From a virus: a stretch of DNA of 64,000 nt. The translations under genes and the position numbers were made by a program. The notes beneath the pieces were generated by a model. It was not told the origin of the DNA, searched no databases, and saw only the letters and a list, made by a program, of their open reading frames with translations. Location: the IMG/VR virus record IMGVR_UViG_3300038318_000351, one strand, 5' to 3'. Positions 24,363-60,902 of this stretch are shown here, piece after piece (the first letter of the stretch is position 1; every line of letters starts with the position of its first letter).

Positions 24363-25385
24363 TTATTTTCCTTCAAGGGAACCAAAACCAACAGCTTTTG
24401 CACCATCTCTAGCCATTACGCTATCTCCGGAAGCAAAATGAATCTTGTCTCCGCCATCCTCAAAATCAAGAATTAACTTACCAACAGCCTTCTGAGAAGC
24501 AAGGTAAATGCCGAGGAACTCAAACATAAATAAACCTTTTTCAAGCTTATTTGCTGTTTCAGTTAATCTAACAGTAAGATCCTTCAGAATAGGCATACGG
24601 CCTACATACTCTGGATCAGCAAAAGCGTAAACAATATCCATAGGGATAATAGGAGAAGTAATTAACTTTACGCTACCCCAAATAGAATACTTAACGCCAG
24701 TCTCTAAGATCTCTCTTTGAGTTAACTGATCGACTTCGGAAGTTGCCCAGTCAAGAACATCATCCAATCTGGTAGGATTCATTACAAATGCAGCCAAAGG
24801 AACATTATGCTGAGAAAGAGTCTTCTTCAAATTTACAAGATGAGTCTTTCTCAAACTTGTATCTGCTGCAGTAACAATCTGACCATCATGTGTAGGAGCC
24901 TTCTTGGTACCATCACCAATTAACAATCTTTCAATAAGATCGATAATCTTAGTATCTTCGGCTTTTGCTACAGCCTGACCAGAAAGCTCTCTAACTCTTT
25001 CGAGATAGTTGTACTTCTGGGTCATTAATCTCTTTAAGCCGATTGTTACATCATCAGATGTAATTGTCATGATAGCAACGTTTACGCCATCACCCTCAAC
25101 CTGGTATCTAGGAACCTGCATATCAGCACCGTAAAATGCCGCATGTGAGTTTTGATCTTTCGGATAATATACATAATCTTCGCCATCGATAGGATGTAAT
25201 TCCTCGCTGACTACATTGTGTGCTATCAATACCTGACGTCCGAAAGCCTCGTAATCTCTTGTCTCACGAATAAACGGAGGCAATTTCTCCAAAGCGATTT
25301 TCTCCAGACCACCAGGCATATCTAATAATCTTGCAACGCTAAAATCCGCATTAGCCGTTTCTGCTGCTGTTTTAATAGCTAACAT
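24363..25385 (-). CDS. Major capsid protein (HK97 fold)
   Basis: 340 aa; PFIRETRDYEAFGRQVL, AVAKAEDTKII, AAFVMNP, IWGSVKLITSPIIP motifs; follows decoration and scaffold-like genes; terminator downstream. Confidence 0.8.
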   Translation of the reverse strand: MLAIKTAAETANADFSVARLLDMPGGLEKIALEKLPPFIRETRDYEAFGRQVLIAHNVVSEELHPIDGEDYVYYPKDQNSHAAFYGADMQVPRYQVEGDGVNVAIMTITSDDVTIGLKRLMTQKYNYLERVRELSGQAVAKAEDTKIIDLIERLLIGDGTKKAPTHDGQIVTAADTSLRKTHLVNLKKTLSQHNVPLAAFVMNPTRLDDVLDWATSEVDQLTQREILETGVKYSIWGSVKLITSPIIPMDIVYAFADPEYVGRMPILKDLTVRLTETANKLEKGLFMFEFLGIYLASQKAVGKLILDFEDGGDKIHFASGDSVMARDGAKAVGFGSLEGK

Positions 25386-25416
25386 ATCTTTATCACCATC
25401 CTTTATATTGTTTTAA

Positions 25417-25839
25417 TTACGCTGAAAAGATTTTTAAGTAACCGTTAACCGGTTGACCCTTTGCATATGCAACGATAGGCTTTTTACCAGCATCAGCCAC
25501 GCTATCCCAAGGAGTTAAAATACCGCCATCAGCAATTTTTAAAGGTGTCATTGTAGTATTATAAGTACCAGCTGGATCGAAGTTACTAACTTCTAATCTA
25601 AATACACCGTGTAAGAAAGCAACTTTCTTTACGGGAACGCCTCCTACTAAGTTTCTTCCAGCTCTCTTGGAACCAATTGCAATGAAGGCTTTGGTAGCAT
25701 CTGCGCCAGCAATAACTAATTTGCCAAATTCGTTAAATGTTACCCATTGACCTTCCTCTACCGTTGCAACAGAATCATCAAGATATTCATCTGCTACTCT
25801 GTACGCATATTCATCAAATCTTTGTTCGAATTTTATCAC
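25417..25839 (-). CDS. Capsid decoration/cement protein
   Basis: 140 aa directly upstream of MCP; EEGQWVTF...G.L pattern like beta-tulip decoration proteins. Confidence 0.6.
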   Translation of the reverse strand: MIKFEQRFDEYAYRVADEYLDDSVATVEEGQWVTFNEFGKLVIAGADATKAFIAIGSKRAGRNLVGGVPVKKVAFLHGVFRLEVSNFDPAGTYNTTMTPLKIADGGILTPWDSVADAGKKPIVAYAKGQPVNGYLKIFSA

Positions 25840-25873
25840 GGGGATTCCTCCTTCACTTTATTATTAATTAATT

Positions 25874-26920
25874 TTAGATTTCACTTACTGCATCTTCAAG
25901 CGAATCCGCTAACGACTTTCTATGTTCAATATTATTACTTTCCATCAGGAAAGTCAAATCATCAACGCCTGACGCAACTTTCTCTACGGCGCGAACATTT
26001 TCAATAGCCTGCTTAAACATGCGAAAAGCATTTTCATCCATCTCGATCATTTCATTGATCTTTGATTGAACGTCAGCCACTTTAATAAGACCTTTATTTA
26101 ACATCATATCAGCAACGGATTTAGCTTCATCGGCTTTCTTTATGATGCAAAGTTCGTCCATAAGCTTTTTGTTTTCGTTTGCTAATTTGATCATGTCATT
26201 TTCCATTTCTTTTTGCTTATAAGCAGCCGTTTTTAACACATTACTAGCTCTTAAAAGTAAGCCAGCTTCGTTATCAACAATCGGGGTTATGGATGCAGTC
26301 TCCGATGCACTATCTAATAATACGGCAGCAATTTTTTCTTTTAAATTTTGTCTATATTCACTTTCTTTCACTACATCATCACCACCCTTATGCCGTTTTT
26401 TTTCAACAGAGTTCATAATTTTTGAGTTAAGATACATAGCACCCGCCGTCGGTAAAACTGCCTTTTTTACTTTCTCAATTGGCGCAGTTAACGCGGGCAC
26501 AGAAACTTGTATAATTTCATCCGCAACGCCATCCGGATTTGTTTTAAGCGGAATCTTATGTTTATAGGTAAACGCGTTTCCCATTCCCTTTGTAACTTTG
26601 TTTTTAGCTAATGTCTGTTGAACTTTGTTCCCGGCTTTAATATCTGCATTACTTAATTTACGCTGAGTATTAGAAAGTTTTCTTTTGATAATATCCCCAG
26701 CCCTTTTCTTGCCGGTCACTTTGTTCAACAAGGCATTAGCTCCATCAAGGACGATAGAGCCAGAACCGCCCTTATCATACATAATATATCTGGCCAACTC
26801 TTCGGGATCAGTATGTCCCTTAAAATTTTTACCTTGTTGCTGCAGTTCCTTCAAATTTTTTACTAAATCATCAAAATTTGAAGCTTTTATGGCAGCTTGC
26901 TTAGATAGCAATTGATGCAT
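25874..26920 (-). CDS. Scaffold-like/internal head protein with K-x-A motifs
   Basis: Basic central region and coiled-coil C-terminus; KQAA, KTAA, KLAN, KVAS motifs. Confidence 0.55.
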   Translation of the reverse strand: MHQLLSKQAAIKASNFDDLVKNLKELQQQGKNFKGHTDPEELARYIMYDKGGSGSIVLDGANALLNKVTGKKRAGDIIKRKLSNTQRKLSNADIKAGNKVQQTLAKNKVTKGMGNAFTYKHKIPLKTNPDGVADEIIQVSVPALTAPIEKVKKAVLPTAGAMYLNSKIMNSVEKKRHKGGDDVVKESEYRQNLKEKIAAVLLDSASETASITPIVDNEAGLLLRASNVLKTAAYKQKEMENDMIKLANENKKLMDELCIIKKADEAKSVADMMLNKGLIKVADVQSKINEMIEMDENAFRMFKQAIENVRAVEKVASGVDDLTFLMESNNIEHRKSLADSLEDAVSEI

Positions 26921-26940
26921 ATAATTGCACCCCCTATCTA

Positions 26941-27621
26941 TTATTCACCATATCCTGCAACGATATCACTTAAATTCATAAGAATATCATCGGCTACCTG
27001 GAGTGAATTTCTGCCAGAAAGATAAGCAAGTTTTTCCGACTTATCAGCAACAAAACTAGCAATCTTTTCATCGGGAAGTTTAGTATATACATAGTCAAGC
27101 AGCGAGTATCCTTCTTCGGCAAGCTTCTCTTCCACTACTTCGTAAGCAACCTTAACTAAGTCATCATGCTCATACTCAGATGCCATAACAGATTCTTCTT
27201 CATTCGAAGAATCATCAACTTCTTCTTCAACTTCCTTAGCCCGAGGATCAACGATTTCCTCTTTTTCTTCTTTTGTCTTTGCCTCTTCCGCTTGTTCCGA
27301 ATCAGTAGCGTCAACTCTTTCGTCGGCTTTTTCACCCTCACCAGGATCAGCTACTTTTGCGGCGTTTTGCTGCGCCAACTCCTCTTTTCTTTTTTCTTCA
27401 TCAACCTGGGTATCCTCTGCAATCTTTTCCTCGATTGTAGCCGGGCTAGAAGCATTCTTCTCATAAGCTATCTTTAACTCGGATGCAAGAGCCTCTAACT
27501 CGTCCGTCGAAAAAGCATCCAGCATTGATTCAGTAGCCTGATTATTTTCAAAAGCTGTTTTTTCCTCATAATAGTCATCTTTAATAAGAGACTCGTAAAA
27601 ATTCGTTCTTTGACCTGCCAC
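26941..27621 (-). CDS. Acidic scaffold-like protein rich in K-x-A motifs
   Basis: Very Glu/Asp-rich; nine K-x-A motifs in 226 aa; directly downstream of the protease. Confidence 0.6.
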   Translation of the reverse strand: MAGQRTNFYESLIKDDYYEEKTAFENNQATESMLDAFSTDELEALASELKIAYEKNASSPATIEEKIAEDTQVDEEKRKEELAQQNAAKVADPGEGEKADERVDATDSEQAEEAKTKEEKEEIVDPRAKEVEEEVDDSSNEEESVMASEYEHDDLVKVAYEVVEEKLAEEGYSLLDYVYTKLPDEKIASFVADKSEKLAYLSGRNSLQVADDILMNLSDIVAGYGE

Positions 27622-27647
27622 TTTAAATGCGCTCCTTTCGGTTTAAT

Positions 27648-30131
27648 TTATTTTAATGATTGTGTTGGTGCAACATCATTTATTTTTGATGATCTAATAT
27701 CTGCACCTTTTTTTGATTTATTAAATAGTTTTGAAAAAATAAAACTATCAATGACGTTACCCGGGATAGTAGCAAATAACGATGTACCTTCCGGGTTAAA
27801 CAATATGTCTCCTACCGTATTCTTAGCTATTTGCTTAGTTAATCCCTCATCTGCAACTTTTTCAATTTCTATTTTAATGCAATCACTTGCTGTTTTCAAG
27901 TATTCTTCCAAATCATCTTCGGTTAAGGCATTTTTAAACAAAATATCATTGACAACATCCTGTCTTTGCTCCGCCATTAAAATACATGCTTGTTTAATTA
28001 CACCTAGTTCTTCTCTGGAATACTTTTTTAACATTGTTGCGTCAATGCTTTCATCTTTGAACATATCTTTATTATATAATGTATCACCCTCATTATCAAA
28101 CGAAGCATTCTTCTCCTGACCACTATAGGGTAATCCCGAAGCAAACTTTTTATATAAAACATCATCTACGGTTTTTACAACATTAGCAGCACCCTTGCTA
28201 TTCTTTATTTTGTTAACACCTTTACTAATTGCAGGGGCAAATGCCAATTGTAATAAAGCTAAGTTACCAGGATTTTCTGCTGCAAAGCGATTTGCCGTGC
28301 TAACTCTTTTACCGTTATGAATTCTCGCTCGCTGTAAAGCGGAATAAGCATATGCTGCAGGTACACCGATAACAACCGCCTTACTTACCTTCCACGGATT
28401 CTTCTGTTGATTTTTTTGTTTTGAAGCAACTTTATCCATTTCGAGCGACTCTATATCATAAATCTCGTTCGCAAATTTGTTTATTCCATCTTGTAATTCT
28501 CCACTTAAGTAGCTCGCAACTCGTTCATCTTCATAGGTCGAATACATTAATCCTGACAATATATAGGGGATGGTAGATGCAACCTTATGAATAGATGCCC
28601 CATTATTAATCATTTTTACTGGCATAAAATGATTAATATTTTCCGGATGCTGCACTGGACCATTACTAATCATTCTAACTAGTCTCGGGATAAGGAATTT
28701 ACGGTGCATACTTCTCTCAGGAAGTAATGGCTTTACGATATCATTCATAATATCATATTGCATAGCATCATCCTGTACAGACGGAACAGGTCTCTTCATT
28801 ATAACAATTGTCGCTTTTGTTTTTTTAATAGGATCTCCTACATTATTCATCAAGTTTATAATTTTATCATGACGTGGCATAAATCCTTCAGAGATAGTTT
28901 TAAACAAAGATGGTAGATTCATATACTCAGACATGGAATTTTCACTTGTCACTTCGTCTACTTCTTTAGCTATGTTATGCGCAGTATCATCGTTAACTTC
29001 TTCCACCAAATTAATTTTTCTTAAATCCGGCGTATTGCAGCCGACCAAGGAACAGGATATATCATGTAATTCCAACGGAGTTAATTCAATGCCAGCAAAA
29101 TTTAACACCTTTAAAAACTGATCAAGAGCAGCATCTACCGGAACACCTCTTTTTGTAGCTAAGCTTTTGATGCTATTAGCGATTTTAACACATTTATCAC
29201 GGTCCCAGTAATCTTCATAAAGTATTTTAAGAAGTTCGGACATAGCTTCAACCTTGTCTCGCCTCTCATTAATATAATCCCCTTTTGCAGCACTCAAGAT
29301 TTTACCTTGTAAATCTTTCTTTATCTCTGCAATCTTTTGAACGTAAGCTTTCTTGTCCATCTTTTTATACATGTTCATGTCAAGATCAATAGTATCAAAC
29401 TCATTTGCAACTTTCTCAGTAATATCTGGTACAATCATCTGACTAATAGATTCCTGAAAACTTGCAACTTTCTCCAAAGTTTTATCCTCTCTAAATGCTA
29501 CCTTATCTCCAACAATAAAAAGACCAGTCACTTTTGCTGCTTTTTCTGCACCATTTAGCACAGTAGAAATATCATGGAATTTGGGACCGATATTAATTTC
29601 ATATATCTTTCTACCATCCTCGAGTATTCTTCCTCTCTGATATTTGATATGATCACAATATTCAAATTTGGTTTTAGCTTTATTTCCACAAATTGAGCAA
29701 ACAGAATAGTTAATTCGACAGCCCATAGAAACGTCAGTCATGAATCCTTTTTCGAACCCGCGTACGATGGTTGGTGCTATTTTACGATCAATTCTCAAAA
29801 GAAGATCTACACCTTTCATCTTGTCGTTCCATTCAGCACTCAAGACATCTCCGATGGTATTTTTAATATCTTTATTTTCGTGATTCTTAAAAGCATGAGC
29901 TGTTAAAAACGTTGGATAACCTTGTATTAACTCACCTTCAGGAAAGAAATCAGAGTTTTTATTACACCCCCAATATTCACCAGCACTCACTGCTCTTACC
30001 TTCATATAGAGAAAATCCGGATCATAAACTACCCCGTCAGGCAATTTAAGCGCAGCTGTTTTTAATAAATCTCCATCTAATATTTCAACATCATCCCAAC
30101 CTAGCGAAGAGGTTGTCATTTTATCAAACAT
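27648..30131 (-). CDS. Prohead maturation protease with a long C-terminal extension
   Basis: N-terminal domain with GCNKNSDFF, AFKNHENKD (candidate His), DVSMGC (candidate Ser), CSICG..YCDH and FHDISTV, typical of HK97-type head proteases; first gene of the head operon. Confidence 0.75.
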   Translation of the reverse strand: MFDKMTTSSLGWDDVEILDGDLLKTAALKLPDGVVYDPDFLYMKVRAVSAGEYWGCNKNSDFFPEGELIQGYPTFLTAHAFKNHENKDIKNTIGDVLSAEWNDKMKGVDLLLRIDRKIAPTIVRGFEKGFMTDVSMGCRINYSVCSICGNKAKTKFEYCDHIKYQRGRILEDGRKIYEINIGPKFHDISTVLNGAEKAAKVTGLFIVGDKVAFREDKTLEKVASFQESISQMIVPDITEKVANEFDTIDLDMNMYKKMDKKAYVQKIAEIKKDLQGKILSAAKGDYINERRDKVEAMSELLKILYEDYWDRDKCVKIANSIKSLATKRGVPVDAALDQFLKVLNFAGIELTPLELHDISCSLVGCNTPDLRKINLVEEVNDDTAHNIAKEVDEVTSENSMSEYMNLPSLFKTISEGFMPRHDKIINLMNNVGDPIKKTKATIVIMKRPVPSVQDDAMQYDIMNDIVKPLLPERSMHRKFLIPRLVRMISNGPVQHPENINHFMPVKMINNGASIHKVASTIPYILSGLMYSTYEDERVASYLSGELQDGINKFANEIYDIESLEMDKVASKQKNQQKNPWKVSKAVVIGVPAAYAYSALQRARIHNGKRVSTANRFAAENPGNLALLQLAFAPAISKGVNKIKNSKGAANVVKTVDDVLYKKFASGLPYSGQEKNASFDNEGDTLYNKDMFKDESIDATMLKKYSREELGVIKQACILMAEQRQDVVNDILFKNALTEDDLEEYLKTASDCIKIEIEKVADEGLTKQIAKNTVGDILFNPEGTSLFATIPGNVIDSFIFSKLFNKSKKGADIRSSKINDVAPTQSLK

Positions 30132-49636: not shown

Positions 49637-51574
49637 TTATTGATTATGCAATCCTAAATCCGTAAGCTGATTTATAAGCATTTGCTCCCTTTTATCAAGT
49701 TCTGCATCTAACACTATATTCTTAACCACTTGACGTATAATAACTTCAGCAACATTTTTATCAGCGAATGAACTATTAAGAATTCCTCTTACAAAATCTC
49801 CAACATTTGTTTTAGGATCACTCAAAAGTTGTTTTTGAACCATGCTAATTAATTGCAAGGATGTATTAAATATTAATTCATTTTCCCTAATTATATCATT
49901 TTTTTTAGTAGAGTTACTAATTAATTCAGTAAAACGTTTATTCAACTCGGACAATAGAGAATAATTTAACAAAGTAATAAATTGTACCTCTTCACTAGTG
50001 CCGCTAACATTTACTCCCCAAATATAATTCCCCTTGTCAGCAAGAATTTTTACCATATAATCATAAACTTCCGGCGAAAAGTTATCATAGGTATTATCAT
50101 AAGGAGTAACCCTGTTTAAGACGTCAAGGCCGAAAACGAAGTCCTCTAAATCAAGATCCTGTGTTTCTCTTGCAAAAAAATCAATTGGTTTATTGTTAAA
50201 AGAACGAATAACTTTTTCGAAGGCATGTCTGCTTGTATAAGCGACGTCACCGTTGCTTGCGACTTTTACAGACAAAATTTTGTTTAATGGGATATCTCCT
50301 ATAGGTCTTGATAAACAAAAATCCTTTTCTATAATCTGTACCAAAGAAGCAGCATCAAAATCCACCCACTCATACCCATATTTTGCAGTCATCAATAAGA
50401 AATATACTACTGGATGAACATTGTTATTTACAAATATATTTTGTTCATCTAGTTTTTCTTCGGCTGTTTTTTCTTGTTTAATCGGAGACGGAAATTTGTC
50501 ATTTAATCTAGCAATCCCTTTGCGAACTTCTTTTACAAAAAATGATTTAAAAAAATCAGTATCTTTCTTCTCAAAGTGTACAAATCCTTCCTCATTCATT
50601 GAAATCACAGGAAGGCTACTAACTATTTTACCATCTACAACAAAGATCACCCTGTCAGGAAAAAATCCAATTTTAACATTGTTTTTTAAATAGTTCGGGT
50701 TTAGAAATTTACCCTGTAAAGACGATATGTTATTTTCACGCTTGTGAAATGGTAATAAACTTAGCGTATCTGTAATTACACCGGCATATTTATCAAATGG
50801 TCTCTCTAATTTAGCTTCCGCTATCACGCATTCATCCTCATCTTCTAAATCGCTCAGTATAACATTTGCCATCTTCTCAATAATGATATTCGACTTACTG
50901 AAAAAATCTCTGGCTAAAGATGCATAATGATAGAGTTCTATGTCAGTTAAATCATCAAAATCTAAGTCATAACATTCTGACGATTCCTTGTTTATAGCTT
51001 TATTTATACCCATTTGCTTTTCTAGAATTTTTTTGGCAAATGCTTTTTCAGCAAATTGAATTTCAGAGTACATCTTATTTAAGATTAGATTCTTATAATA
51101 AGAGTAGTCCTTTCGTTTCCATGCTTCATACATATCTTCATTCATTTCATCTACTTCGATTGTATCTAAAGGAATGTCTTTCATTTTATCTTTAACTACG
51201 TAAACAACGCTTAACGGCGTAAATATAACTTTTAAATTATTTGAAAGATGTTCCATCTGCTTGTAATAATCATATTGCTCAAATCCTGGATCTTGTCGAT
51301 GGTGTTTTTCTGCGGGCAAAATAATCGGCAATTGCTGTTTTCGCGCTTTATTCTTGGCGAAACTATTACCAAGAACAGCCCCGATAATTGCAGAAGGAAC
51401 TGTCTTAACAAAAAAATTTCCTTTTTGCTTTTGTTTTTTTTCGTCATCCTTTTGATAAAAGCCAGATTCGGCCGGAATTGTAATAGGCATCGGACGGAAT
51501 TCAGGTGTGGGATTTGAAATGCTACTACTGCCAACAGTAGCTTCTTTAAAAAAATTGTTCTCTTCTATTTTCAT
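49637..51574 (-). CDS. Hypothetical head-module protein with internal domain duplication
   Basis: 645 aa; two related segments each followed by a K-x-A-like motif. Confidence 0.7.
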   Translation of the reverse strand: MKIEENNFFKEATVGSSSISNPTPEFRPMPITIPAESGFYQKDDEKKQKQKGNFFVKTVPSAIIGAVLGNSFAKNKARKQQLPIILPAEKHHRQDPGFEQYDYYKQMEHLSNNLKVIFTPLSVVYVVKDKMKDIPLDTIEVDEMNEDMYEAWKRKDYSYYKNLILNKMYSEIQFAEKAFAKKILEKQMGINKAINKESSECYDLDFDDLTDIELYHYASLARDFFSKSNIIIEKMANVILSDLEDEDECVIAEAKLERPFDKYAGVITDTLSLLPFHKRENNISSLQGKFLNPNYLKNNVKIGFFPDRVIFVVDGKIVSSLPVISMNEEGFVHFEKKDTDFFKSFFVKEVRKGIARLNDKFPSPIKQEKTAEEKLDEQNIFVNNNVHPVVYFLLMTAKYGYEWVDFDAASLVQIIEKDFCLSRPIGDIPLNKILSVKVASNGDVAYTSRHAFEKVIRSFNNKPIDFFARETQDLDLEDFVFGLDVLNRVTPYDNTYDNFSPEVYDYMVKILADKGNYIWGVNVSGTSEEVQFITLLNYSLLSELNKRFTELISNSTKKNDIIRENELIFNTSLQLISMVQKQLLSDPKTNVGDFVRGILNSSFADKNVAEVIIRQVVKNIVLDAELDKREQMLINQLTDLGLHNQ

Positions 51575-51824: not shown

Positions 51825-53231
51825 TTATTCCTTCATCCTGCGTTGTTTTAGAATACCTTGTTTTAAATCATCGTAGTTAATTAAAGATATTTGCTTTTGC
51901 ATTTCTTTCTTTTTCTGTTTTTCAGTATCGGTATTTTCGATACTTTTTTTGATATTCTTCTCAGTCTTCTCAACAGAAGAAGCTATTTTTACTAAGTCAT
52001 CCAGTTTTTGAGAAGCTTTTTTGCTAATCCCAGAACCATTAGTTTGGACAATAATACGAGCCATGCCATTAGGTAAAGGCGCATTTATCGGTGTATTTTT
52101 TTTACTTGATTTTTTCTTTTCCAACCCACCTTTAATATTCCTGCCTGTGACATTAATAACAATTGCCGGTAATATTGTAGTTCCTAATCCACGCGCTACT
52201 CTTCTGGGCAGCGTATCTAATGCCCATTCTTTCCATGATAAACTCTTTGGATGCTGCATTTCAGAAGCTTGTTTTGGCATACGGGATTCTTTTTTTTTAT
52301 TATTCCCATACAGATAGTCTATTGGGATATCAATCACAGCTTGCGTAACATCTGAATTGTTTGGCGATATCTGTTTTGGAATATCGTATTTTTTCTTTTT
52401 GTTATTTCCATACAGATATTCTATTGGTACATCAATAACAACCTGTGTAACATTCGAATCGTGATCCGTAGACTCATCAGAATGCCTACTTTTACTCTTA
52501 TTTGTAAAATATCTAAGAGCTGCGGGCGTGGCTGAATAAGGTATCGATTCTATTCCACCACGTATAAAATCATCCCTAATTATACTTTTAAGCCTATCAC
52601 TTGCAGTTTTTTCAAACATCTTGTCAATAAACTCACTAGTAGTAGCATCTTTATGAAATGTTCTACACACTGGTTTTGTGCCAGTTTTTATAACATCAAG
52701 AATATTGCGTACAGTCTTATTTTTGCCAATAGTCTTTCTTGGAATTTTATGAATAAACTTTTCCGTTCCTTTTCTTGCGCTGTTAACGGGAGCCATAGGA
52801 TCTTTTGTAAGCAAGGCTTGTAACGCAGCGGAACCTAATACAGCACCACCCGCTGTAAGATAAGGATTAAGAGAAGATTTGTCATTATCATTAATTTCCC
52901 TTAAATGAATTTCTTCTTTTGCGTCATAAGGTTTATTTTTGTTGTATGGGCGTCTATCTCTGTTACCGCGATTATAACCTTTTTGTTGCCGATTATCCGA
53001 TGCTACTTTATAAAGAAAATCAATTTTTTCTCCAGCATTTCGAAACATGGGATTTATATTTACTGCGTTTCTCACTCCTCCGCCCCCGGGAGCCTTGATA
53101 ATTTGATTTTTTAGGATTTTATCATATTTATTTGTTCCGGCCTTTAATTGCTGTTTAGCATTTTTATCAGTATCTTTTGCAGTTCTAGCAATTTCTTGAC
53201 CAGTAAAAATCGCTGTGATTGGGTCCATCAT
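51825..53231 (-). CDS. Basic, Lys-rich putative internal head protein
   Basis: GAAAGGAG RBS before ATG 53231; KVAS, KTAS, KQAS, KKAS, KIAS motifs; 34-aa tandem duplication. Confidence 0.65.
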   Translation of the reverse strand: MMDPITAIFTGQEIARTAKDTDKNAKQQLKAGTNKYDKILKNQIIKAPGGGGVRNAVNINPMFRNAGEKIDFLYKVASDNRQQKGYNRGNRDRRPYNKNKPYDAKEEIHLREINDNDKSSLNPYLTAGGAVLGSAALQALLTKDPMAPVNSARKGTEKFIHKIPRKTIGKNKTVRNILDVIKTGTKPVCRTFHKDATTSEFIDKMFEKTASDRLKSIIRDDFIRGGIESIPYSATPAALRYFTNKSKSRHSDESTDHDSNVTQVVIDVPIEYLYGNNKKKKYDIPKQISPNNSDVTQAVIDIPIDYLYGNNKKKESRMPKQASEMQHPKSLSWKEWALDTLPRRVARGLGTTILPAIVINVTGRNIKGGLEKKKSSKKNTPINAPLPNGMARIIVQTNGSGISKKASQKLDDLVKIASSVEKTEKNIKKSIENTDTEKQKKKEMQKQISLINYDDLKQGILKQRRMKE

Positions 53232-53347
53232 AATTCTCCTTTCGGTCTTTTTATATATTAAAATTAAGGCATTTCCTTTTATAATCAAGGAAATGCCTTA
53301 AGCCTTTAGCAACTAAAGGAAATCCTTTAGTACGTATTGGATTGTCG

Positions 53348-53686
53348 TTAGTCGTCTAGCAAGCCATAATCGTTAAATATCTTGATTGCAGCTTCCTTAT
53401 ATACTTGAGCTTCTTCGAGTACGTTGTTAGCTGCCTTTTCCATAGCATCGGCATCTTCGAATACAGCAGCAGCTTTTTGGATAGCTGCAATAATGTATTC
53501 CTCTGCTTCCTTATCTTCTTCATCCTTAGTATCATCCTCGGTATCTTTGTCCCTTTTTTGTTCCTTTTCTTCTGTATCGGTATTATCTTTCTTCTCTTCG
53601 TCTTCCAACTTCTCGGCGATAGCATCATTTACAATTTCTTCTGCAAGCTTCTCTACGAATTCATTATATTCTGCCTGTTTAAGCAT
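53348..53686 (-). CDS. Small acidic protein with K-x-A motifs
   Basis: AGGAGG RBS; KQA, KLA, KAA, KAA, KEA in 112 aa. Confidence 0.7.
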   Translation of the reverse strand: MLKQAEYNEFVEKLAEEIVNDAIAEKLEDEEKKDNTDTEEKEQKRDKDTEDDTKDEEDKEAEEYIIAAIQKAAAVFEDADAMEKAANNVLEEAQVYKEAAIKIFNDYGLLDD

Positions 53687-53786: not shown

Positions 53787-55469
53787 TTAATAATATATGC
53801 CTGAATTCTGTTTTTGCTTACGTTTTTTTGCTTCGTTTAAACCAATTCCAACACCTGTGCCGACTAAAGCGGCACCTCTTGCTTTCTTCCTGGAAGCGAT
53901 CGCTTTATTATATGCTTTTTCTGCATCCTTTACTGCTTTACTAGCGCCTTCAATATCGATTTCATTTTCGATATTAGAAAGTTTTCTCTGAGCGTTATCA
54001 ATTTGGTCAACTAAATCTCGTTTTATTCTCTTAGTCTGCTGCTTGGTCATATTCTGCGCTCTTTTAAGTTCCTGTTTACCAGCAGACAAATCTAATTTTG
54101 CTTTTATTGCACTGGGAGAAAAATATTTTGATGGATTTAAAGGACCTTTTAAAGCGTTTTCATTGATCACTTTATCAGCTTTGCTAGTAACTCCATCGTA
54201 CTTATTGAATGCTTTATTTAAAACTTCATTTGCTTCTTCCATACGAGGATGAATATCTACGTTTCTTTTTGCCTTAGTAAGTGTATCTAGTGTCTTTTTA
54301 GCACTCACCAGTCTATCATCGTTTATTTTCTTTGACAATGATTCAGTGGTATCCTTAAGACCTTTTTTTGCTTTTCTGACATTGGATCCAGTCAACGCTT
54401 TACCAAACGCAATGATACCCTTGCCAGCAGATGCAATTTTTTCAGCCTGATCTTCTGTAATCCCTGCCGATTTAATTAAATCGTCTTTTTTGTGCAGGTT
54501 ATCTTTTACCGCTTTAGTATTAGTCGAAATATCATTTACCTGCTGAACTAAATCAACTATATTACGAATTGTTGCTTCATCTGTAATGACAACCGGTAAA
54601 GTCTGATTACTGCTTGTAACAAATTCTGCTTCTTTCATAAAGGAATATTGTTTTAACGAAAATTCATTTGATTCCTTTACGGTATCTACAAAATCTAATT
54701 TCAATTCATAATTATCAGGGAGTGTTTTAGCTTCCTTCATAATAGCAATTTGATTTTCTGTAGCAGTTTTTATCATTAACTGCGTTTTCGGATTACACTC
54801 CGCCCTTTTACATACTTCGTCAAAGATATTTTGTGCGTTTAAACCATGTACGGAATACTGAATAAGAGCATTCGCAACTGTATGTGAACTTGAAGCAACT
54901 TTCTCAACATACTTATTAATTTGTTGATCAATTGCCTGCAACTCTGTAACAGCTTCTTCCAGTTTAATGTTATCTTTTGTCCTCTTTAATTCCGGAGATA
55001 ACGAACCAAACTCATAGGATAGCGAATTAAACATATTTGGCATATCTCCACTATTATCTTCCCAGCTAGCTTTCTTTTCTAAACTATGATTGTTATTTAA
55101 ACCGGCCTCTTGATTTATAGCTTGATTTTTTTCTACGGATTCAGTGTTACCCGTAACCTCTTCTTTAATTTTTTTTAAAGACGCTAAGTCGAATACAACA
55201 TCTCTATCAGGAGAGTTTTTCATCTGATTATACTTAATTAAGTATACCTGATTATTCACTTCTTCTACTATTCGCTGTATTTGATCATCATTTAAGTTAT
55301 CATTCTTCGCAATTTTAGCAATAGACTTATTTAGGTCTATATTATATTTCATGTAATCGTCTACAACTTTATTTCTATAAATATTTAGTTTACGAGTGAA
55401 ATCTCCGTTTACTGTTTTGCTGCCTACAGTATCAAATCCATTTGATAATGCTTCTAATAATGATGGCAA
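53787..55469 (-). CDS. Putative internal head protein with K-x-A motifs and basic C-terminal module
   Basis: GGAGGTG RBS before TTG; KKAS, KVAS, KTAT, KEAE, KIAS; C-terminal Gly-rich hydrophobic segment. Confidence 0.7.
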   Translation of the reverse strand: MPSLLEALSNGFDTVGSKTVNGDFTRKLNIYRNKVVDDYMKYNIDLNKSIAKIAKNDNLNDDQIQRIVEEVNNQVYLIKYNQMKNSPDRDVVFDLASLKKIKEEVTGNTESVEKNQAINQEAGLNNNHSLEKKASWEDNSGDMPNMFNSLSYEFGSLSPELKRTKDNIKLEEAVTELQAIDQQINKYVEKVASSSHTVANALIQYSVHGLNAQNIFDEVCKRAECNPKTQLMIKTATENQIAIMKEAKTLPDNYELKLDFVDTVKESNEFSLKQYSFMKEAEFVTSSNQTLPVVITDEATIRNIVDLVQQVNDISTNTKAVKDNLHKKDDLIKSAGITEDQAEKIASAGKGIIAFGKALTGSNVRKAKKGLKDTTESLSKKINDDRLVSAKKTLDTLTKAKRNVDIHPRMEEANEVLNKAFNKYDGVTSKADKVINENALKGPLNPSKYFSPSAIKAKLDLSAGKQELKRAQNMTKQQTKRIKRDLVDQIDNAQRKLSNIENEIDIEGASKAVKDAEKAYNKAIASRKKARGAALVGTGVGIGLNEAKKRKQKQNSGIYY

Positions 55470-55852: not shown

Positions 55853-55898
55853 GGTATTTTTTGCAATATTATAAAATATTTTTTAAGGAGGATTTAAG

Positions 55899-56243: not shown

Positions 56244-56270
56244 AAATATTTTAAAAAGATTGTATTTTTG

Positions 56271-56287: not shown

Positions 56288-56320
56288 AAATAACCATAAA
56301 AAAATAAGGAGGAACAGATT

Positions 56321-56656: not shown

Positions 56657-56713
56657 ATAAAAAAATAAATGGGCAGCTCATGCTGCCCAATATTTTATAA
56701 GGGGGATGTATGT

Positions 56714-56929
56714 ATGTGTTTTACAGATATAGATGATATATTATACGAAAAGAGAGATCGGATAATTAAAAACTTACGCGAAAGAATGGATGAGATACCT
56801 TTATTAGAGGATATAGTAGAGGAATTATCAGAGATCAAAATTGGAGACGGTAAAAATGTAAAAGTCACAATTGTAAAACAAGACTTTAAAAAATGCGAAA
56901 ATACAACATATGAAAAAATATTAAAGTAA
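56714..56929 (+). CDS. Small hypothetical protein (71 aa)
   Basis: AAGGGGG RBS before ATG 56714. Confidence 0.6.
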   Translation: MCFTDIDDILYEKRDRIIKNLRERMDEIPLLEDIVEELSEIKIGDGKNVKVTIVKQDFKKCENTTYEKILK

Positions 56930-56931
56930 AG

Positions 56932-56960
56932 AAGAAAGTAGGGCAATGCCCTACTTTCTT
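56932..56960. terminator. Bidirectional terminator (GGGCAATGCCC core)
   Basis: AAGAAAGTAGGGC-AAT-GCCCTACTTTCTT between convergent genes. Confidence 0.75.
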
Positions 56961-58582: not shown

Positions 58583-58606
58583 GAAATCACCGCCTTTACA
58601 ATACCA

Positions 58607-58615
58607 ATTATAGCA
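58607..58615 (-). promoter_or_regulatory. Extended -10 element upstream of terL
   Basis: TGCTATAAT about 25 bp upstream of the start codon. Confidence 0.45.
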
Positions 58616-58677
58616 TAAGCACTATAAATTTAGTAATCAATGGATATCTTGATTTTAGTATGTTAAGAATATTTACG

Positions 58678-58694
58678 GTATAAGAAATAAAACA
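58678..58694 (+). promoter_or_regulatory. GTATAAG-WAATAAAACA promoter-like motif
   Basis: GTATAAGAAATAAAACA followed by AAGGAGG RBS. Confidence 0.6.
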
Positions 58695-58712
58695 GGATAA
58701 GGAGGATATAAA

Positions 58713-59057
58713 ATGAAACATCAAATTTTAAAAGAAAACACGAAGTACTCATTGGAGATTACGGTAAAGGCAAAAGGAGGAATTATAAAGATCACAGATC
58801 ACTCATTAACAAAATGGGAAGAAAGGAAAGAATACAGGAAAGATGAGGTATTACAAATAATAAATGATTTAAAAGAGCGTAGCAAAAGCACTGGTATGCA
58901 TGGAGAGATTATAATCTCTGAGGTAATAAAATCCTATGATTTTGTAATGGATACTTATAAAGAAGATCCAAAAGACAAAGACGCAGAAGAAATACATTAT
59001 ATGGCGTTAAGATTAGTACCGATAGATTTTAAAGAAATTGATAAGTATAAATTTTAA
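58713..59057 (+). CDS. Small cassette hypothetical protein (114 aa)
   Basis: AAGGAGG RBS, promoter motif and terminator. Confidence 0.75.
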   Translation: MKHQILKENTKYSLEITVKAKGGIIKITDHSLTKWEERKEYRKDEVLQIINDLKERSKSTGMHGEIIISEVIKSYDFVMDTYKEDPKDKDAEEIHYMALRLVPIDFKEIDKYKF

Positions 59058-59082
59058 GATTAGGGGGCAATGCCCCCTAATC
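59058..59082. terminator. Bidirectional terminator (GGGCAATGCCC core)
   Basis: GATTAGGGGGC-AAT-GCCCCCTAATC. Confidence 0.75.
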
Positions 59083-59087
59083 ATTTT

Positions 59088-60902
59088 TTAACTAAATCTA
59101 TAATGTGGTGTAAATACTGGTTGCGATGAATTTTGCTGATTATTCTTATCTTTTGCATTTTCCAAAGCTTTGGCGCCAGCATATGCTCCGGTACCAAGTG
59201 CACCATAAGCACCCACTGTTTTTGCCAGTTCTTTATTGTAGCGGTTACGCGCTTTATTTGCGACAGCGTTTGCAGGGTTGCCAATACCTGCAGCTCGCCC
59301 AATTTCTCCGATTGTTCCGGCAGTATTCTTCACGGTAGATGTTCTATCACTAATATTTTTAGCATCATTTACCGCTCTCATTTTCTTCTTTAGTTCATCT
59401 GAGTTTTTCACAGCATTCAACTCATGCTGAATATCGCCAATTGTAACTTTTGATCTTCCCATCTGTTTCTGAGCTTTGTTCGCATTTGCCGAAGCCACGT
59501 TAAATCTTCTAATTTCGTCTAAGAAATCTTGGTTTCCAATTACTTTCTTTTTACCAGTAAACGTCTTTTTAACTTCTGCCAAGTCCTTATTACTAATCGC
59601 CTGATTCTGTTTCATACGATCAACGATATCATCAATCTTTTCATTATATTTGCGATTTTTATTAAACTGCTTAGAATGAACAATATTATCAACCTTGCTA
59701 AAAACACCTTCTCTGTCAGAGGCCGTCTGCTTTTTAGCTTTTTCTAAAGTGCCACGTATGTCGTTGATTTCTTTTTGACTATTACGATACTCCTTATTTA
59801 AAGTACCAATGTGACTGCGAGCACCATTTAAAGCATTTGCTAATTCATCCTCTGCTTTCCCAGAAAACCTCGTTTTTACAAGATCCCCGTTTCTGTCTAT
59901 ACGTATTCTTTTGCCTTTGGACCAGTCCTTTAAAGCTTTTTGCTTATTCCTTACAAGAGTATTTAAACTGTCATCGGCAACGTTAACTACTTTGTTAGCA
60001 TTATTTAATAAACCAGCGCCCGATTCTGCTGCATTTAATGCACCTTTTGCCTTCCGAACATTTTTACCAGAGAGAATATCTCCAACATCTTTTAATAAAC
60101 TGTGATGCGCGGCAAGTTTTTCATATCCACTATTTACGATTTCCTCTGCCGTCTTATCAATTTTAGTTTCCATGATATCTTCATCATAAGAAGCCATTTT
60201 CTCATAAGCCTCATCAATGATTTCAAAAGCATTTTTTAATTTCATGTTGTTATTAACTCCTTTCGATTTTTTCTTTGATTTTATAATCGTTTCCGGTGTA
60301 TAAGCAAGTTGCGCAAGATCAGCTGCATCACCAAGTAATTTCAGTGATCCACCTGTGGCTGCTCCTGCGCCCAATGCTTTAATCGCTTTTTTTCTATCTG
60401 CCCACTTTGTTGACGGCTTAATTATCTTTGGAGCATTTTGAATTGTTTTTGTTAAGTTATCTACAAGCTTACTTCTGTTTTTGTATAGCATTCCATAATA
60501 AGCTGCAGTTGGTATACTTTTTACAGAGATTAACTTCGCATAATCTTCTGGATCAGGGTTTGTTCCAAACTCTTTCTTGTGCAATTTTTTAAGTCGAACG
60601 GACGGTACCGCTCCATCGGTTATAATGCTCGAAATTGCAAAAGCAGGTATACCGGCATTTAGGAAAGAGTTTTTCAAAATATTCTTCTGTTGAATCTTAC
60701 TTAAATTACGCCACTTGGTTTTACCTAATTCCTTTGTAATTCCGCCCGCTAATCCAAGTCCACCAACACCGAGAGAAATTCCATTTCCGATTATTTCGTC
60801 TTTCTTGGAAGAAATAGCTCTGTCGTTAATAACATCTTTCACAACATTTACTATTTTATCCCTCTTATCTTTATTATAATTCATATCATTTTTATTGTCC
60901 AT
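59088..60902 (-). CDS. Putative internal head protein, two basic modules split by a K-x-A cluster
   Basis: EKMAS, DKTAE, EKLAA in a central acidic linker; C-terminal module resembles that of 53787-55469. Confidence 0.7.
   Translation of the reverse strand: MDNKNDMNYNKDKRDKIVNVVKDVINDRAISSKKDEIIGNGISLGVGGLGLAGGITKELGKTKWRNLSKIQQKNILKNSFLNAGIPAFAISSIITDGAVPSVRLKKLHKKEFGTNPDPEDYAKLISVKSIPTAAYYGMLYKNRSKLVDNLTKTIQNAPKIIKPSTKWADRKKAIKALGAGAATGGSLKLLGDAADLAQLAYTPETIIKSKKKSKGVNNNMKLKNAFEIIDEAYEKMASYDEDIMETKIDKTAEEIVNSGYEKLAAHHSLLKDVGDILSGKNVRKAKGALNAAESGAGLLNNANKVVNVADDSLNTLVRNKQKALKDWSKGKRIRIDRNGDLVKTRFSGKAEDELANALNGARSHIGTLNKEYRNSQKEINDIRGTLEKAKKQTASDREGVFSKVDNIVHSKQFNKNRKYNEKIDDIVDRMKQNQAISNKDLAEVKKTFTGKKKVIGNQDFLDEIRRFNVASANANKAQKQMGRSKVTIGDIQHELNAVKNSDELKKKMRAVNDAKNISDRTSTVKNTAGTIGEIGRAAGIGNPANAVANKARNRYNKELAKTVGAYGALGTGAYAGAKALENAKDKNNQQNSSQPVFTPHYRFS

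What the first reader, a model, noticed from the sequence alone, without database searches (positions are those of the whole stretch)
24363..60902. Recurring K-x-A motif across head-module proteins: candidate capsid maturation signal
Seen: the tripeptide K-x-A, usually E/L/V/I-K-x-A-S/A/E/N, recurs in otherwise dissimilar proteins: MCP N-terminus (MLAIKTAA), portal N-terminus (MIKVAN), 25874-26920 (KQAA, KTAA, KLAN, KVAS), 26941-27621 (9 in 226 aa), protease (about 14), 49637-51574, 51825-53231 (five KxAS), 53348-53686 (5 in 112 aa), 53787-55469 and 59088-60902. By eye it is much sparser in tail and replication proteins (the tape measure has LKMAS and QKNAS). Established: T4 gp21 cleaves after I/L-x-E and the phiKZ/SPN3US proteases after AxE-type motifs, removing propeptides from capsid, portal and internal proteins. 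Inference: the protease at 27648-30131 cuts at K-x-A, a specificity different from the Glu-specific proteases, and the motif marks the packaged proteome, including genes far from the capsid operon.
Basis: partly seen in the sequence, partly recalled or inferred. Interest (0 to 1): 0.9.

Follow-up and report, generated by a model that had tools for sequence, protein, structure and literature searches.

The report
Lys-x-Ala cleavage motif of capsid protease
A short peptide signal (hydrophobic-Glu-Lys-x-Ala-Ser) is repeated and strongly conserved in the head-assembly proteins of this large uncultivated phage and its relatives, and is most likely where the phage's capsid-maturation protease cuts, a specificity not described for phages in the papers I could search.

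Summary
K-x-A is about 2-4 times over-represented in the 827-aa protease fusion (20 vs 6.3), in the two proteins after it, and in three proteins near the portal. Tail and replication proteins sit at expectation (70 vs 75).

Several tests support a functional motif:
- Sites survive as conserved islands in otherwise unconserved, low-confidence linkers across 120 protease homologues.
- The portal N-terminal site is kept in 120 of 120 homologues.
- Five metagenomic relatives repeat the pattern.
- So do cultured distant relatives: Bacillus phage G, Salmonella phage Arash and Vibrio phage D69.

The N-terminal domain has the T4 gp21 / herpesvirus assemblin fold. Known enzymes of that fold read P3-x-P1, and herpes assemblins cut Ala|Ser.

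My reading (about 0.8) is that this is the prohead protease's recognition motif, probably cut after Ala. No cleavage was shown here.

"Marks the packaged proteome" overreaches. It marks the processed subset: the neighbouring 2317-aa RNA polymerase is depleted in K-x-A, and two listed proteins are marginal.

The profile finds 4579 protein clusters, and K-x-A was checked in only 78 distant ones. I rate it a new variant of a known kind.

The parts
27648..30131 (-). 827-aa protease-scaffold polyprotein: N-terminal protease core followed by about 600 aa of helical modules separated by K-x-A-bearing linkers
   Evidence: K.A 20 vs 6.3. 120 homologues have a median observed/expected ratio of 2.5, and K.A is the top pair in 73 of 120. 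The full-length AF2 model has low-pLDDT linkers at 1-27, 193-258, 561-584, 639-683, 767-792 and 810-827, which hold 9 of the 20 sites.
29559..30050 (-). Protease core, residues 28-191 (assemblin / T4 gp21 fold)
   Evidence: AF2 gives high pLDDT for 28-191. Foldseek top hit is 5jbl, T4 gp21, probability 1.0. VIA Z 11.1, rmsd 3.0 over 130 residues; herpes proteases score Z 6-7.4. phrog_18299 'head maturation protease', 1e-7.
29718..29735 (-). DVSMGC, with Ser135 as the candidate nucleophile
   Evidence: S135 and H84 are invariant in the close homologues and in G gp19, Arash gp222, D69_0270 and Catera gp94. C145, C148, C159 and H161 are also invariant, forming a Zn-ribbon-like insert.
30051..30062 (-). 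Site LLKTA|A (residues 24-27), at the N-terminal edge of the protease core
   Evidence: K.A is kept in 120 of 120 homologues. It aligns with LVKTAA in G, LTKQAAA in Arash and LEKSAAA in D69. It lies in the low-pLDDT segment 1-27.
29460..29471 (-). Site LEKVA|S (residues 221-224), a release-type site just after the protease core
   Evidence: Kept in 98% of 120 homologues while flanking identity is 0.26. ILEKVAS in G, VLEKVAN in Arash and VLQKVAS in D69. Highest flank-PWM score in the window.
28422..28433 (-). Site MDKVA|S (residues 567-570), in a disordered linker
   Evidence: K.A is kept in 98% of homologues while flanking identity is 0.08. K567 and A569 are among the few invariant residues of the C-terminal 600 aa.
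28137..28148 (-). Site KKFA|S (residues 662-665), in a disordered linker
   Evidence: Kept in 81% of homologues with flanking identity 0.10. Lies in the low-pLDDT segment 639-683.
27849..27860 (-). Site IEKVA|D (residues 758-761)
   Evidence: Kept in 64-73% of homologues. Family logo is I/L-E-K-x-A-S.
26941..27621 (-). 226-aa very acidic protein (net charge -40) with 9 K.A; candidate scaffold or core protein cut into peptides
   Evidence: 9 vs 2.3, p=4e-4. Orthologues: 7 vs 2.0 and 6 vs 2.3. Equivalent small proteins in L011-L013 are also enriched. Composition.
25874..26920 (-). 348-aa scaffold-like protein with 10 K.A, clustered in residues 196-316
   Evidence: 10 vs 4.75. Full-motif sites 5 vs 0.23, p=5e-4. 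Orthologues: 9 vs 5.2 and 8 vs 4.7.
24363..25385 (-). Major capsid protein, related to phage G gp27, with two N-terminal candidate sites
   Evidence: phrog_2522 at 1e-26. PDB 6wkk gp27 at 5e-26. No overall enrichment, 3 vs 2.1.
25362..25373 (-). MCP site AIKTA|A (residues 5-8)
   Evidence: Conserved in L001, L002, L012 and L013. L011 has K-T-G instead.
25290..25301 (-). MCP site GLEKIA|L (residues 29-32). Cutting here would remove a 31-aa propeptide.
   Evidence: Aligns column for column with GLVKEA|G in Arash and GLTKEA|G in D69. FQKIAS, FEKFAS and FNKIAL in L011-L013. Phage G has lost the Lys and has no K.A anywhere in its MCP.
47654..49609 (-). Portal protein
   Evidence: phrog_16240 at 7e-22. 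No overall enrichment.
49496..49507 (-). Portal site MIKVA|N (residues 35-38); candidate 37-aa N-terminal propeptide
   Evidence: K.A sits at this column in 120 of 120 portal homologues, consensus M-[VI]-K-[VITLM]-A-S-F. Motif sites in the family are concentrated in the first decile of the protein. Phage G portal has MAKQA|A at residues 18-20.
51825..53288 (-). 467/487-aa protein with five K-x-A-S sites (residues 94, 227, 339, 423, 434); candidate internal head protein precursor
   Evidence: K.A[SN] 5 vs 0.6, p=4e-4. Full-motif sites 5 vs 0.14. In 7 homologues at 26-41% identity the sites persist next to indels.
53348..53686 (-). 112-aa acidic helical protein with 6 K.A; ambiguous, since helix composition may contribute
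   Evidence: 6 vs 2.1, p=0.009. Only 2 sites have motif-like flanks. The orthologue keeps 5 of 6.
53787..55469 (-). 560-aa protein: N-terminal half with K.A sites (132, 190, 234, 279, 333, 344), then a basic C-terminal module
   Evidence: 12 vs 6.2. Full-motif sites 5 vs 0.30. Orthologue 14 vs 6.4, with 9 of 12 sites kept.
49637..51574 (-). 645-aa protein next to the portal; marginal candidate substrate
   Evidence: 5 vs 2.9, not significant. Orthologues: 7 vs 3.7 (p=0.06) and 7 vs 2.4 (p=0.0075). The site at residue 234 is kept in both orthologues.
59088..60902 (-). 604-aa basic protein; no overall enrichment, but a cluster of three sites at residues 235-265 (window 60108-60200) ahead of a basic module
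   Evidence: 7 vs 8.9. Full-motif sites 2 vs 0.33, p=0.04. The cluster is partly kept in a partial orthologue (279 aa, cut by the locus end; about 47% identical over the 219 residues matched).
40509..47462 (-). 2317-aa fused beta-beta' RNA polymerase next to the portal; context only: depleted in K.A and with no N-terminal site
   Evidence: 9 vs 16.5, P(<=obs)=0.019. Orthologue 6 vs 14.7. Orthologous products carry Rpb2 and Rpb1 Pfam domains.

Best explanation
The extended motif is [L/M/I/F]-[E or I/V]-K-[T/V/I/x]-A-[S/A/G/N]. I read it as the recognition and cleavage site of the phage's own prohead serine protease, which is the N-terminal assemblin/gp21-fold domain of the 827-aa protein.

Shown here:
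- The fold of that domain.
- The enrichment of the motif and its extended logo.
- Its conservation as islands in disordered linkers.
- Its placement at the protease-core boundaries and at the portal and MCP N-termini.
- Its recurrence in the head modules of distant relatives.

Inferred sequence of events:
1. The polyprotein co-assembles into the prohead.
2. It frees a protease of about 197 aa by cutting at KTA|A (after residue 26) and KVA|S (after residue 223).
3. It chops its own C-terminal helical modules and the two downstream scaffold-like proteins into fragments.
4. It removes about 37 aa from the portal and 7 or 31 aa from the MCP.
5. It removes N-terminal pro-regions from internal proteins encoded beside the portal, releasing basic C-terminal modules.

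The scissile bond is probably after Ala (P3 Lys, P1 Ala, P1' Ser). This follows the P3-x-P1 rule of T4 gp21, phiKZ/SPN3US gp245 and herpes assemblin.
For: 1. Enrichment. Values are: K.A z=8.4 and K.AS z=12.3 in six proteins, with none in the tail or replication proteins.
2. Shared extended motif. A PWM of flanking positions only was trained on protease homologues, leaving out the window's own protein and its ten closest relatives. It separates K.A sites of the non-protease head proteins from other positions in the same proteins (p=4e-14; 41% above the 95th percentile). It does not do so in the remaining proteins (p=0.76; 8%).
3. Purifying selection. Sites 24, 221 and 567 are kept in 98-100% of 120 homologues where the flanks are 8-58% identical. 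Lys and Ala inside K.A are twice as conserved as other Lys and Ala in the C-terminal region (0.57 vs 0.29 and 0.26; p about 1e-3). The portal site is kept in 120 of 120. Sites in the 487-aa family persist next to indels.
4. Accessibility. The best-conserved sites lie in low-pLDDT linkers.
5. Replication. Relatives L001, L002, L007, L009, L011, L012 and L013 show the same pattern.
6. Distant phages with other hosts. G gp19 has the same motif on both sides of its core. Arash gp220, gp223 and gp225 and D69_0268, 0271 and 0273 are loaded with it. Arash has 24 motif sites in 6 head ORFs against 4 in 67 ORFs elsewhere. Among 78 distant cluster representatives K.A is 627 vs 294.5.
7. Enzyme. T4 gp21 fold at Z 11.1, with invariant Ser135 and His84.
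8. Precedent. T4 uses L/I-x-E (PMC9026906). SPN3US uses A-x-E at P3-P1 with Ser preferred at P1' (PMC10052503). Herpes R and M sites are YLQA-T and VQA-S, in a protease-scaffold fusion (PMC4498786).
Against: - There is no biochemical or mass-spectrometric evidence of cleavage for this phage or any relative.
- The scissile bond is inferred by analogy. HK97-type enzymes of the same fold are reported to cut after Lys (from memory).
- Several K.A sites lie in confidently predicted helices (residues 316, 713, 746, 758) and may not be cut.
- The 112-aa protein's sites look like Ala/Glu/Lys helix periodicity.
The per-protein tests, the flank-only PWM and the relatives do not depend on that choice.
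- The homologues are related, so the conservation counts are not independent.
- The complex prediction gave no verdict.
Confidence: 0.8

Rival explanations
1. The motif is recognised by the protease, but the cut is after the Lys (P1 Lys, P2' Ala), as reported for HK97-type prohead proteases, rather than after the Ala.
For: Lys is as invariant as Ala. The enzyme shares its fold with HK97-type proteases: BFVD hits include COG3740-type prohead proteases. HK97 MCP cleavage after a Lys is from memory, not tested here.
Against: The three specificities documented for this fold in the papers read here are all P3-x-P1 (PMC9026906, PMC10052503, PMC4498786). The position after Ala is strongly restricted to small residues, with Ser in 111 of 118 at site 221; this fits P1' as in SPN3US and herpes. 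A strict P2' Ala with beta-branched P1' would be unusual.
Confidence: 0.12
2. K-x-A is a non-cleaved docking or capsid-targeting motif: a short linear motif that binds the scaffold, the MCP inner surface or the protease and recruits proteins into the prohead.
For: The distribution is the same as expected for a targeting signal, namely head-module proteins and N-termini. T4 capsid-targeting sequences are short N-terminal peptides (PMC9026906).
Against: In T4 the targeting peptide ends in the cleavage site, so the two roles are not exclusive. Up to 20 copies per protein, and sites on both edges of the protease core and between modules, fit fragmentation better than docking. The logo has the P3-x-P1-P1' shape of protease sites.
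Confidence: 0.06
3. The enrichment is a by-product of composition or secondary structure, such as Ala/Lys/Glu-rich amphipathic helices or coiled coils in scaffold-like proteins, or of chance after looking at many tripeptides.
For: Several enriched proteins are helical and rich in K, A and E. The sites in the 112-aa protein have Glu/Ala flanks typical of helices.
Against: The shuffles preserve composition. K.A is first of 400 pairs, while A.K, R.A, K.[GS] and the other spacings are at expectation. The best-conserved sites are in non-helical, low-confidence linkers. The flank-only PWM test gives p=4e-14. The pattern repeats in phages of other bacterial phyla.
Confidence: 0.02

Closest known systems
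Herpesvirus assemblin (pUL26 / VP24) with its R- and M-sites
   Same: Same fold (Z 6-7.4). The N-terminal protease is fused to a C-terminal scaffold. A release site lies directly after the protease domain, with further sites in the scaffold. The inferred rule is the same: P1 Ala, P1' Ser/Thr (YLQA-T and VQA-S in PrV, PMC4498786).
   Different: Herpes enzymes want a hydrophobic P3/P4 ([VLI].A is not enriched here). This motif has an invariant Lys at P3 and Glu at P4. There are many more sites per substrate. The core carries a Cys3-His insert. No Pfam family matches.
T4 gp21 prohead protease (L/I-x-E)
   Same: Best structural match: 5jbl, Z 11.1, 130 residues, rmsd 3.0. It cuts the MCP, portal-vertex, scaffold and internal proteins, with the scaffold cut into many fragments, and it probably processes both of its own termini (PMC9026906). 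Recognition is P3-x-P1.
   Different: P1 is Glu in T4. [LI].E is at expectation here (29 vs 28.6). T4 gp21 is not fused to a long scaffold.
phiKZ gp175 / SPN3US gp245 (A/S/G-x-E)
   Same: Large phages with many processed internal or ejection proteins and a virion RNA polymerase. The motif is repeated inside propeptides, and Ser is preferred at P1' (PMC10052503).
   Different: Those enzymes are Glu-specific at P1. Here [SAG].E shows only a weak excess (z=2.4) against z=8.4 for K.A. The MCP lineage also differs (phage G type).
Bacillus phage G gp19, Salmonella phage Arash gp222, Vibrio phage D69_0270, mycobacteriophage Catera gp94
   Same: True sequence homologues of the protease core (29-39% identity in the alignment). 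They share the K-x-A sites on both sides of the core, and their neighbouring head proteins are loaded with the motif.
   Different: The C-terminal extensions differ: gp19 is 300 aa in all, Arash and D69 about 480 aa, Catera 1369 aa. In Catera the flanks of K.A do not fit the PWM. The phage G MCP has lost its sites. None of these proteins has a published cleavage specificity in the papers I could search.
Protease-scaffold fusions of small phages (P2 gpO, lambda gpC/Nu3)
   Same: A single gene supplies both protease and scaffold and is auto-processed (from memory, not tested here).
   Different: Different protease families and sizes. No K-x-A rule is known for them.

Membership tests
Assemblin-fold prohead serine proteases (T4 gp21 / herpes assemblin / HK97 gp4 superfamily) | Characteristic beta-barrel protease fold | tested here: met
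   AF2 core 28-191 at high pLDDT. Foldseek 5jbl probability 1.0, TMt 0.55. VIA Z 11.1 to T4 gp21, well above the next rows; herpes proteases Z 6-7.4.
Assemblin-fold prohead serine proteases | Conserved catalytic Ser and His | tested here: inconclusive
   Ser135 (DVSMGC) and His84 are invariant from the close homologues out to G, Arash, D69 and Catera. I did not superpose them on the gp21 or assemblin triad, and the third triad member is not identified.
Assemblin-fold prohead serine proteases | Sequence match to a curated protease family (Pfam S77/S78/S21) | tested here: not met
   No Pfam hit for the whole protein at E<=0.01 or for 28 domain sequences at E<=1. No PDB hit by profile. Only phrog_18299 'head maturation protease' at 1e-7. 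The clade is not covered by the curated models.
Assemblin-fold prohead serine proteases | Encoded in the head module, upstream of the scaffold and MCP genes | tested here: met
   Gene order is protease, 226 aa, 348 aa, 140 aa, MCP, then tail genes. The same order holds in L001, L002, L011-L013, G, Arash and D69.
Assemblin-fold prohead serine proteases | Proteolytic activity on head proteins, with autoprocessing | not testable with these tools
   Only inferred from motif placement at both edges of the core.
Glu-specific prohead proteases (T4 L/I-x-E; phiKZ/SPN3US A/S/G-x-E) | Recurrent x-x-Glu motif in substrates | tested here: not met
   [LI].E 29 vs 28.6 (z=0.1). [SAG].E 54 vs 40.6 (z=2.4). 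K.A z=8.4 and K.AS z=12.3 in the same six proteins.
Herpes-type Ala|Ser specificity | P1 Ala, P1' Ser, hydrophobic P3/P4 | tested here: inconclusive
   Ala is invariant and Ser dominates the following position. However, P3 is Lys and P4 Glu, [VLI].A is not enriched, and the scissile bond is not determined.

The most novel reading that the evidence does not exclude
Phi-E-K-x-A|S would define a further specificity class of assemblin-fold capsid proteases (P3 Lys, P1 Ala). The protease-domain profile finds 4579 protein clusters at 50% identity, which is the clade that may share it; K-x-A itself was checked in 78 distant cluster representatives and in several cultured large phages (G, Arash, D69, probably cluster-C mycobacteriophages). 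If so, the processed head proteome (propeptides, scaffold fragments, basic internal proteins) could be read from sequence alone. Packaged enzymes such as the fused virion RNA polymerase would be evolving to avoid the motif.
Probability: 0.65. Interest if true: 0.7.

Novelty: new variant of a known kind. Interest (0 to 1): 0.65.

Why it matters
Experimentally defined phage prohead-protease cleavage rules are few; those I could document in the papers read here are the Glu-specific ones of T4 and phiKZ/SPN3US. A well-supported sequence rule for a large, mostly uncultivated clade would be useful in several ways.

- Annotators could predict mature N-termini, propeptides and internal or ejected proteins in these genomes, most of whose head proteins have no annotation.
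- Cryo-EM model building could use predicted mature boundaries, and mass-spectrometry searches could use semi-specific cleavage after K-x-A.
- It would extend the evolutionary link between phage and herpesvirus capsid proteases from fold to substrate logic (P1 Ala, P1' Ser, with the protease released from a fused scaffold).
- It suggests a tag for loading foreign proteins into capsids, as was done with T4 targeting sequences.

It can be tested at once, because Arash, D69 and phage G are in culture and virion LC-MS/MS has been reported for Arash and phage G.

Tried and rejected
- **Complex prediction.** Protease core (28-195) against its own downstream linker (200-262), with paired alignments: 'no answer', score 0.01. 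This is neither for nor against.
- **Curated families and sequence-level structure search.** Pfam on all ten head proteins, and on 28 protease-domain sequences, gave no meaningful family. A PDB profile search of the protease domain gave only chance zinc-ribbon-like hits. The portal has no PDB relative by sequence.
- **C-terminal 600 aa.** A BFVD search with the full-length model matched only through the protease domain, so this region stays without a known fold.
- **Decoration protein.** The 140-aa ORF 25417-25839 shows no detectable similarity to phage G decoration protein gp26.
- **Near-identical genome.** No GenBank phage matches by megablast, and no whole genome is held for this window.
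- **Literature.** The Arash supplement holds only the feature table, not peptides.
- **487-aa protein.** The homologue search returned only 6 proteins.
- **DNA-level explanation.** Rejected: codon usage at the sites equals background, and 68 of 84 nine-mers are distinct.
- **Tail and replication candidates.**
  - The tape-measure sites (LKMAS, QKNAS) and the sigma-factor KYAA have poor flanks.
  - The single good-looking site in 22849-23682 is absent from its orthologue, which has 0 K.A in L001.

Full report
**What the window is.** All 64 kb is phage DNA at about 35% G+C. On the minus strand there is a myovirus tail module (sheath 19481-20869, a 1672-aa tape measure). A head module follows: the 827-aa protein 27648-30131, a 226-aa protein, a 348-aa protein, a 140-aa protein and the MCP 24363-25385. 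A second head block holds terminase 56960-58582, four unannotated proteins, the portal 47654-49609 and a 2317-aa fused beta-beta' RNA polymerase.

The MCP is a distant relative of Bacillus phage G gp27 (27% identity; PDB 6wkk at 5e-26). No near-identical GenBank phage exists. Homologous proteins sit on 130-170 kb metagenomic contigs. Some of these are labelled as Clostridia MAGs: Herbinix, Anaerovoracaceae, Paraclostridium.

- 827-aa protein: 20 vs 6.3; K.A[SAEN] 12 vs 1.6; Poisson 1e-5 and 1.5e-7.
- 226-aa protein: 9 vs 2.3.
- 348-aa protein: 10 vs 4.75.
- 560-aa protein: 12 vs 6.2.
- 112-aa protein: 6 vs 2.1.
- 487-aa protein: five K.AS, with K.A[SN] 5 vs 0.6.

The MCP, the portal, 49637-51574 and 59088-60902 are not enriched as whole proteins.

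In that set K.A is the most over-represented of all 400 residue pairs at spacing one (87 vs 44.6, z=6.3). All other proteins of the window have 70 against 75 expected.

The signal is specific to Lys and Ala in that order and at that spacing. In the six enriched proteins K.A has z=8.4 and K.AS z=12.3. R.A, A.K, K.[GS], [VLI].A and the T4-type [LI].E are all at expectation. Codon usage at the sites matches the genes' general usage, and 68 of 84 nine-mers are distinct, so this is a protein-level feature.

**The motif is longer than K-x-A.** I aligned 120 homologues of the 827-aa protein and took the aligned sites. They give this logo:
- P5: L/M/I/F.
- P4: Glu, or Ile/Val at the N-terminal site.
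- P3: Lys.
- P2: Thr/Val/Ile.
- P1: Ala.
- P1': Ser, then Ala, Gly, Asn.

I built a weight matrix from the flanking positions only, without the Lys and Ala. I left out the window's own protein and its ten closest relatives. I then asked whether K.A sites in the other head proteins share these flanks. They do:
- Median flank score is -0.86 against -7.79 for other positions in the same proteins (p=4e-14).
- 41% of the sites lie above the 95th percentile.
- In tail, replication and other proteins, K.A sites cannot be told from background (p=0.76; 8%).

Counting only K.A sites with motif-like flanks:
- 348-aa protein: 5 vs 0.23 expected.
- 226-aa protein: 3 vs 0.14.
- 487-aa protein: 5 vs 0.14.
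- 560-aa protein: 5 vs 0.30.
- All of the roughly 40 non-head proteins together: 5 sites.

**Selection acts on the motif itself.** In the protease family several sites are islands of conservation in poorly conserved sequence:

| Site | Share of homologues keeping K.A | Identity of flanks |
|---|---|---|
| 24 | 100% | 0.58 |
| 221 | 98% | 0.26 |
| 567 | 98% | 0.08 |
| 662 | 81% | 0.10 |

K221, A223, K567 and A569 are among the few invariant residues of the C-terminal 600 aa. Lys and Ala residues inside K.A are twice as conserved as other Lys and Ala there (0.57 against 0.29 and 0.26; p about 1e-3).

The portal site M-I-K-V-A-N (residues 33-38) is present at the same column in 120 of 120 portal homologues down to 46% identity, with consensus M-[VI]-K-x-A-S-F. 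Motif sites in that family pile up in the first tenth of the protein. In the fast-evolving 487-aa family (26-41% identity), three to five sites persist next to large indels.

**Replication in relatives.**
- Two IMG/VR relatives (protease 66% and 52% identical) show the same enrichment in the same three proteins, and none in tail or replication genes.
- The second head block of one of them repeats the enrichment in the orthologues of 53787, 53348, 51825 and 49637.
- Three more diverged contigs do the same and carry both MCP N-terminal sites.

**Distant relatives with cultured hosts.** This is the most telling result. The motif appears in phages of other host groups.
- Phage G gp19 has LVKTAA before its protease core and ILEKVAS after it.
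- Salmonella phage Arash gp222 and Vibrio phage D69_0270 have L-x-K-x-A-A-A before the core and VL[EQ]KVA[NS] after it.
- Their neighbouring head proteins are packed with the motif: Arash gp220 10 vs 3.0, gp223 8 vs 3.0, gp225 7 vs 1.8; D69_0268 11 vs 3.9, 0271 10 vs 2.9.
- In Arash, 6 head ORFs hold 24 motif sites, while 67 ORFs in the first 50 kb hold 4.
- The Arash and D69 MCP site GL[VT]KEA|G aligns exactly with GLEKIA|L (residues 26-32) of the window's MCP.
- A profile of the protease domain finds 4579 clusters at 50% identity (956 below 1e-30). In 78 distant representatives K.A is 627 vs 294.5 expected.

**The enzyme.** Residues 28-191 fold with high confidence, while residues 1-27 and 192-235 do not. 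The best structural match is T4 gp21 (Foldseek probability 1.0; VIA Z 11.1, rmsd 3.0 over 130 residues). This is well above the next rows. Herpesvirus proteases follow at Z 6-7.4.

Ser135 (in DVSMGC) and His84 are invariant out to G, Arash, D69 and Catera. So is a C-x2-C...C-x-H insert. No Pfam protease family matches, so this clade is outside the curated models.

In the full-length model the C-terminal 600 aa are helical modules separated by low-confidence linkers. Nine of the 20 K.A sites, including all of the best-conserved ones, fall in the 25% of the chain with pLDDT below 50.

**How it most likely works.** The shown facts fit the standard pattern of prohead maturation, as described for T4 in PMC9026906: scaffold cut into many fragments, propeptides removed from the portal, MCP and internal proteins, and the protease trimmed at both ends.

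The architecture parallels herpesvirus pUL26: an N-terminal protease, a release site directly after it, and a scaffold with further sites (PMC4498786).

I infer the following:
1. The polyprotein is built into the prohead.
2. It frees a protease of about 197 aa by cutting after A26 and A223.
3. It fragments its own C-terminal modules and the 226-aa (net charge -40) and 348-aa proteins.
4. It removes about 37 aa from the portal and 7 or 31 aa from the MCP.
5. It trims the N-terminal halves of the 487-, 560- and perhaps 604-aa proteins, leaving basic C-terminal modules inside the head.

The cut is probably after Ala. The specificities documented for this fold in the papers read here are all P3-x-P1: T4 L/I-x-E, SPN3US A-x-E with Ser favoured at P1' (PMC10052503), and herpes x-x-A followed by S/T. 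The position after Ala is also restricted to small residues. Cutting after Lys remains possible.

- The motif does not mark everything that is likely to be packaged. The RNA polymerase beside the portal has no N-terminal site and is depleted in K.A (9 vs 16.5, P=0.019; orthologue 6 vs 14.7). In Arash the RNA polymerase subunits are the most abundant proteins by spectrum count in virion preparations (PMC10585845). The depletion may therefore reflect avoidance of the protease, but I did not control for what is normal in beta and beta' subunits.
- Phage G's MCP has no K.A at all, and the deposited capsid chain is 280 of 282 residues. This is consistent with an uncut MCP there.
- The 112-aa protein's sites may owe something to helix composition.
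- 49637-51574 and 59088-60902 are marginal.

**Novelty.** The concept of a prohead-protease motif that marks processed head proteins is well known. The specificity, and the finding that it extends to distant members of a large clade missing from the curated protease models (Pfam) that also includes cultured phages, appear new. I file it as a new variant of a known kind. The earlier notes on this genome are first-reader notes on the same window and added no independent evidence.

Noticed in passing
40509-47462 (minus strand): The 2317-aa single-chain beta-beta' RNA polymerase next to the portal is depleted in K-x-A (9 vs 16.5; orthologue 6 vs 14.7) and has no N-terminal site. Orthologues of 2277-2319 aa carry Rpb2 and Rpb1 Pfam domains in one product. 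Arash, a distant relative, has RNA polymerase subunits as its most abundant virion MS proteins. This may be protease avoidance in a packaged enzyme.
   Followed up: partly
29640-29699 (residues 145-164 of the protease): Invariant C-x2-C ... C-x-H (C145, C148, C159, H161) inside the protease core, conserved out to phage G, Arash, D69 and Catera. It looks like a zinc-ribbon insert, which I do not recall in T4 gp21 or the herpes assemblins.
   Followed up: partly
53787-55469 and 59088-60902: Both proteins have a cluster of K-x-A sites followed by a similar Lys/Arg-rich module (…SNVRKAKKGL… and …KNVRKAKGAL…) ending in Gly/Ala-rich hydrophobic stretches. They may be paralogous basic internal head proteins released by processing.
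   Followed up: no
26941-27621: The 226-aa protein after the protease has net charge -40 (28% Asp+Glu) and nine K-x-A sites. It looks like a disposable acidic core or scaffold protein. The 112-aa protein 53348-53686 is similar (net charge -23).
   Followed up: partly
L003 (phage G 10000-30000) and PDB 6wkk: The phage G MCP gp27 has no K-x-A at all (0 vs 1.6 expected) and has Ala in place of the Lys of the MCP site. The deposited capsid chain is 280 of 282 residues. G apparently does not trim its MCP, while its protease and portal keep the motif.
   Followed up: partly
L006 (mycobacteriophage Catera gp94, 1369 aa): The homologous protease is fused to more than 1100 aa. K.A is still the top residue pair (18 vs 8.3), but its flanks do not fit the PWM. 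The rule may have drifted in high-G+C actinophages.
   Followed up: no
L011:11697-12740 (MCP orthologue): The first MCP site reads A-I-K-T-G instead of K-T-A, while the second site (FQKIA|S) is intact. This suggests the second site is the essential one.
   Followed up: no
28200-28380 (residues about 585-640 of the 827-aa protein): A well-conserved hydrophobic Gly/Ala/Pro-rich helical hairpin (Y596, S597, Q600, R615, A618 and P621 nearly invariant) sits between two cleavage-type linkers. Its function is unknown; it could be the capsid-binding or membrane-active part of the polyprotein.
   Followed up: no
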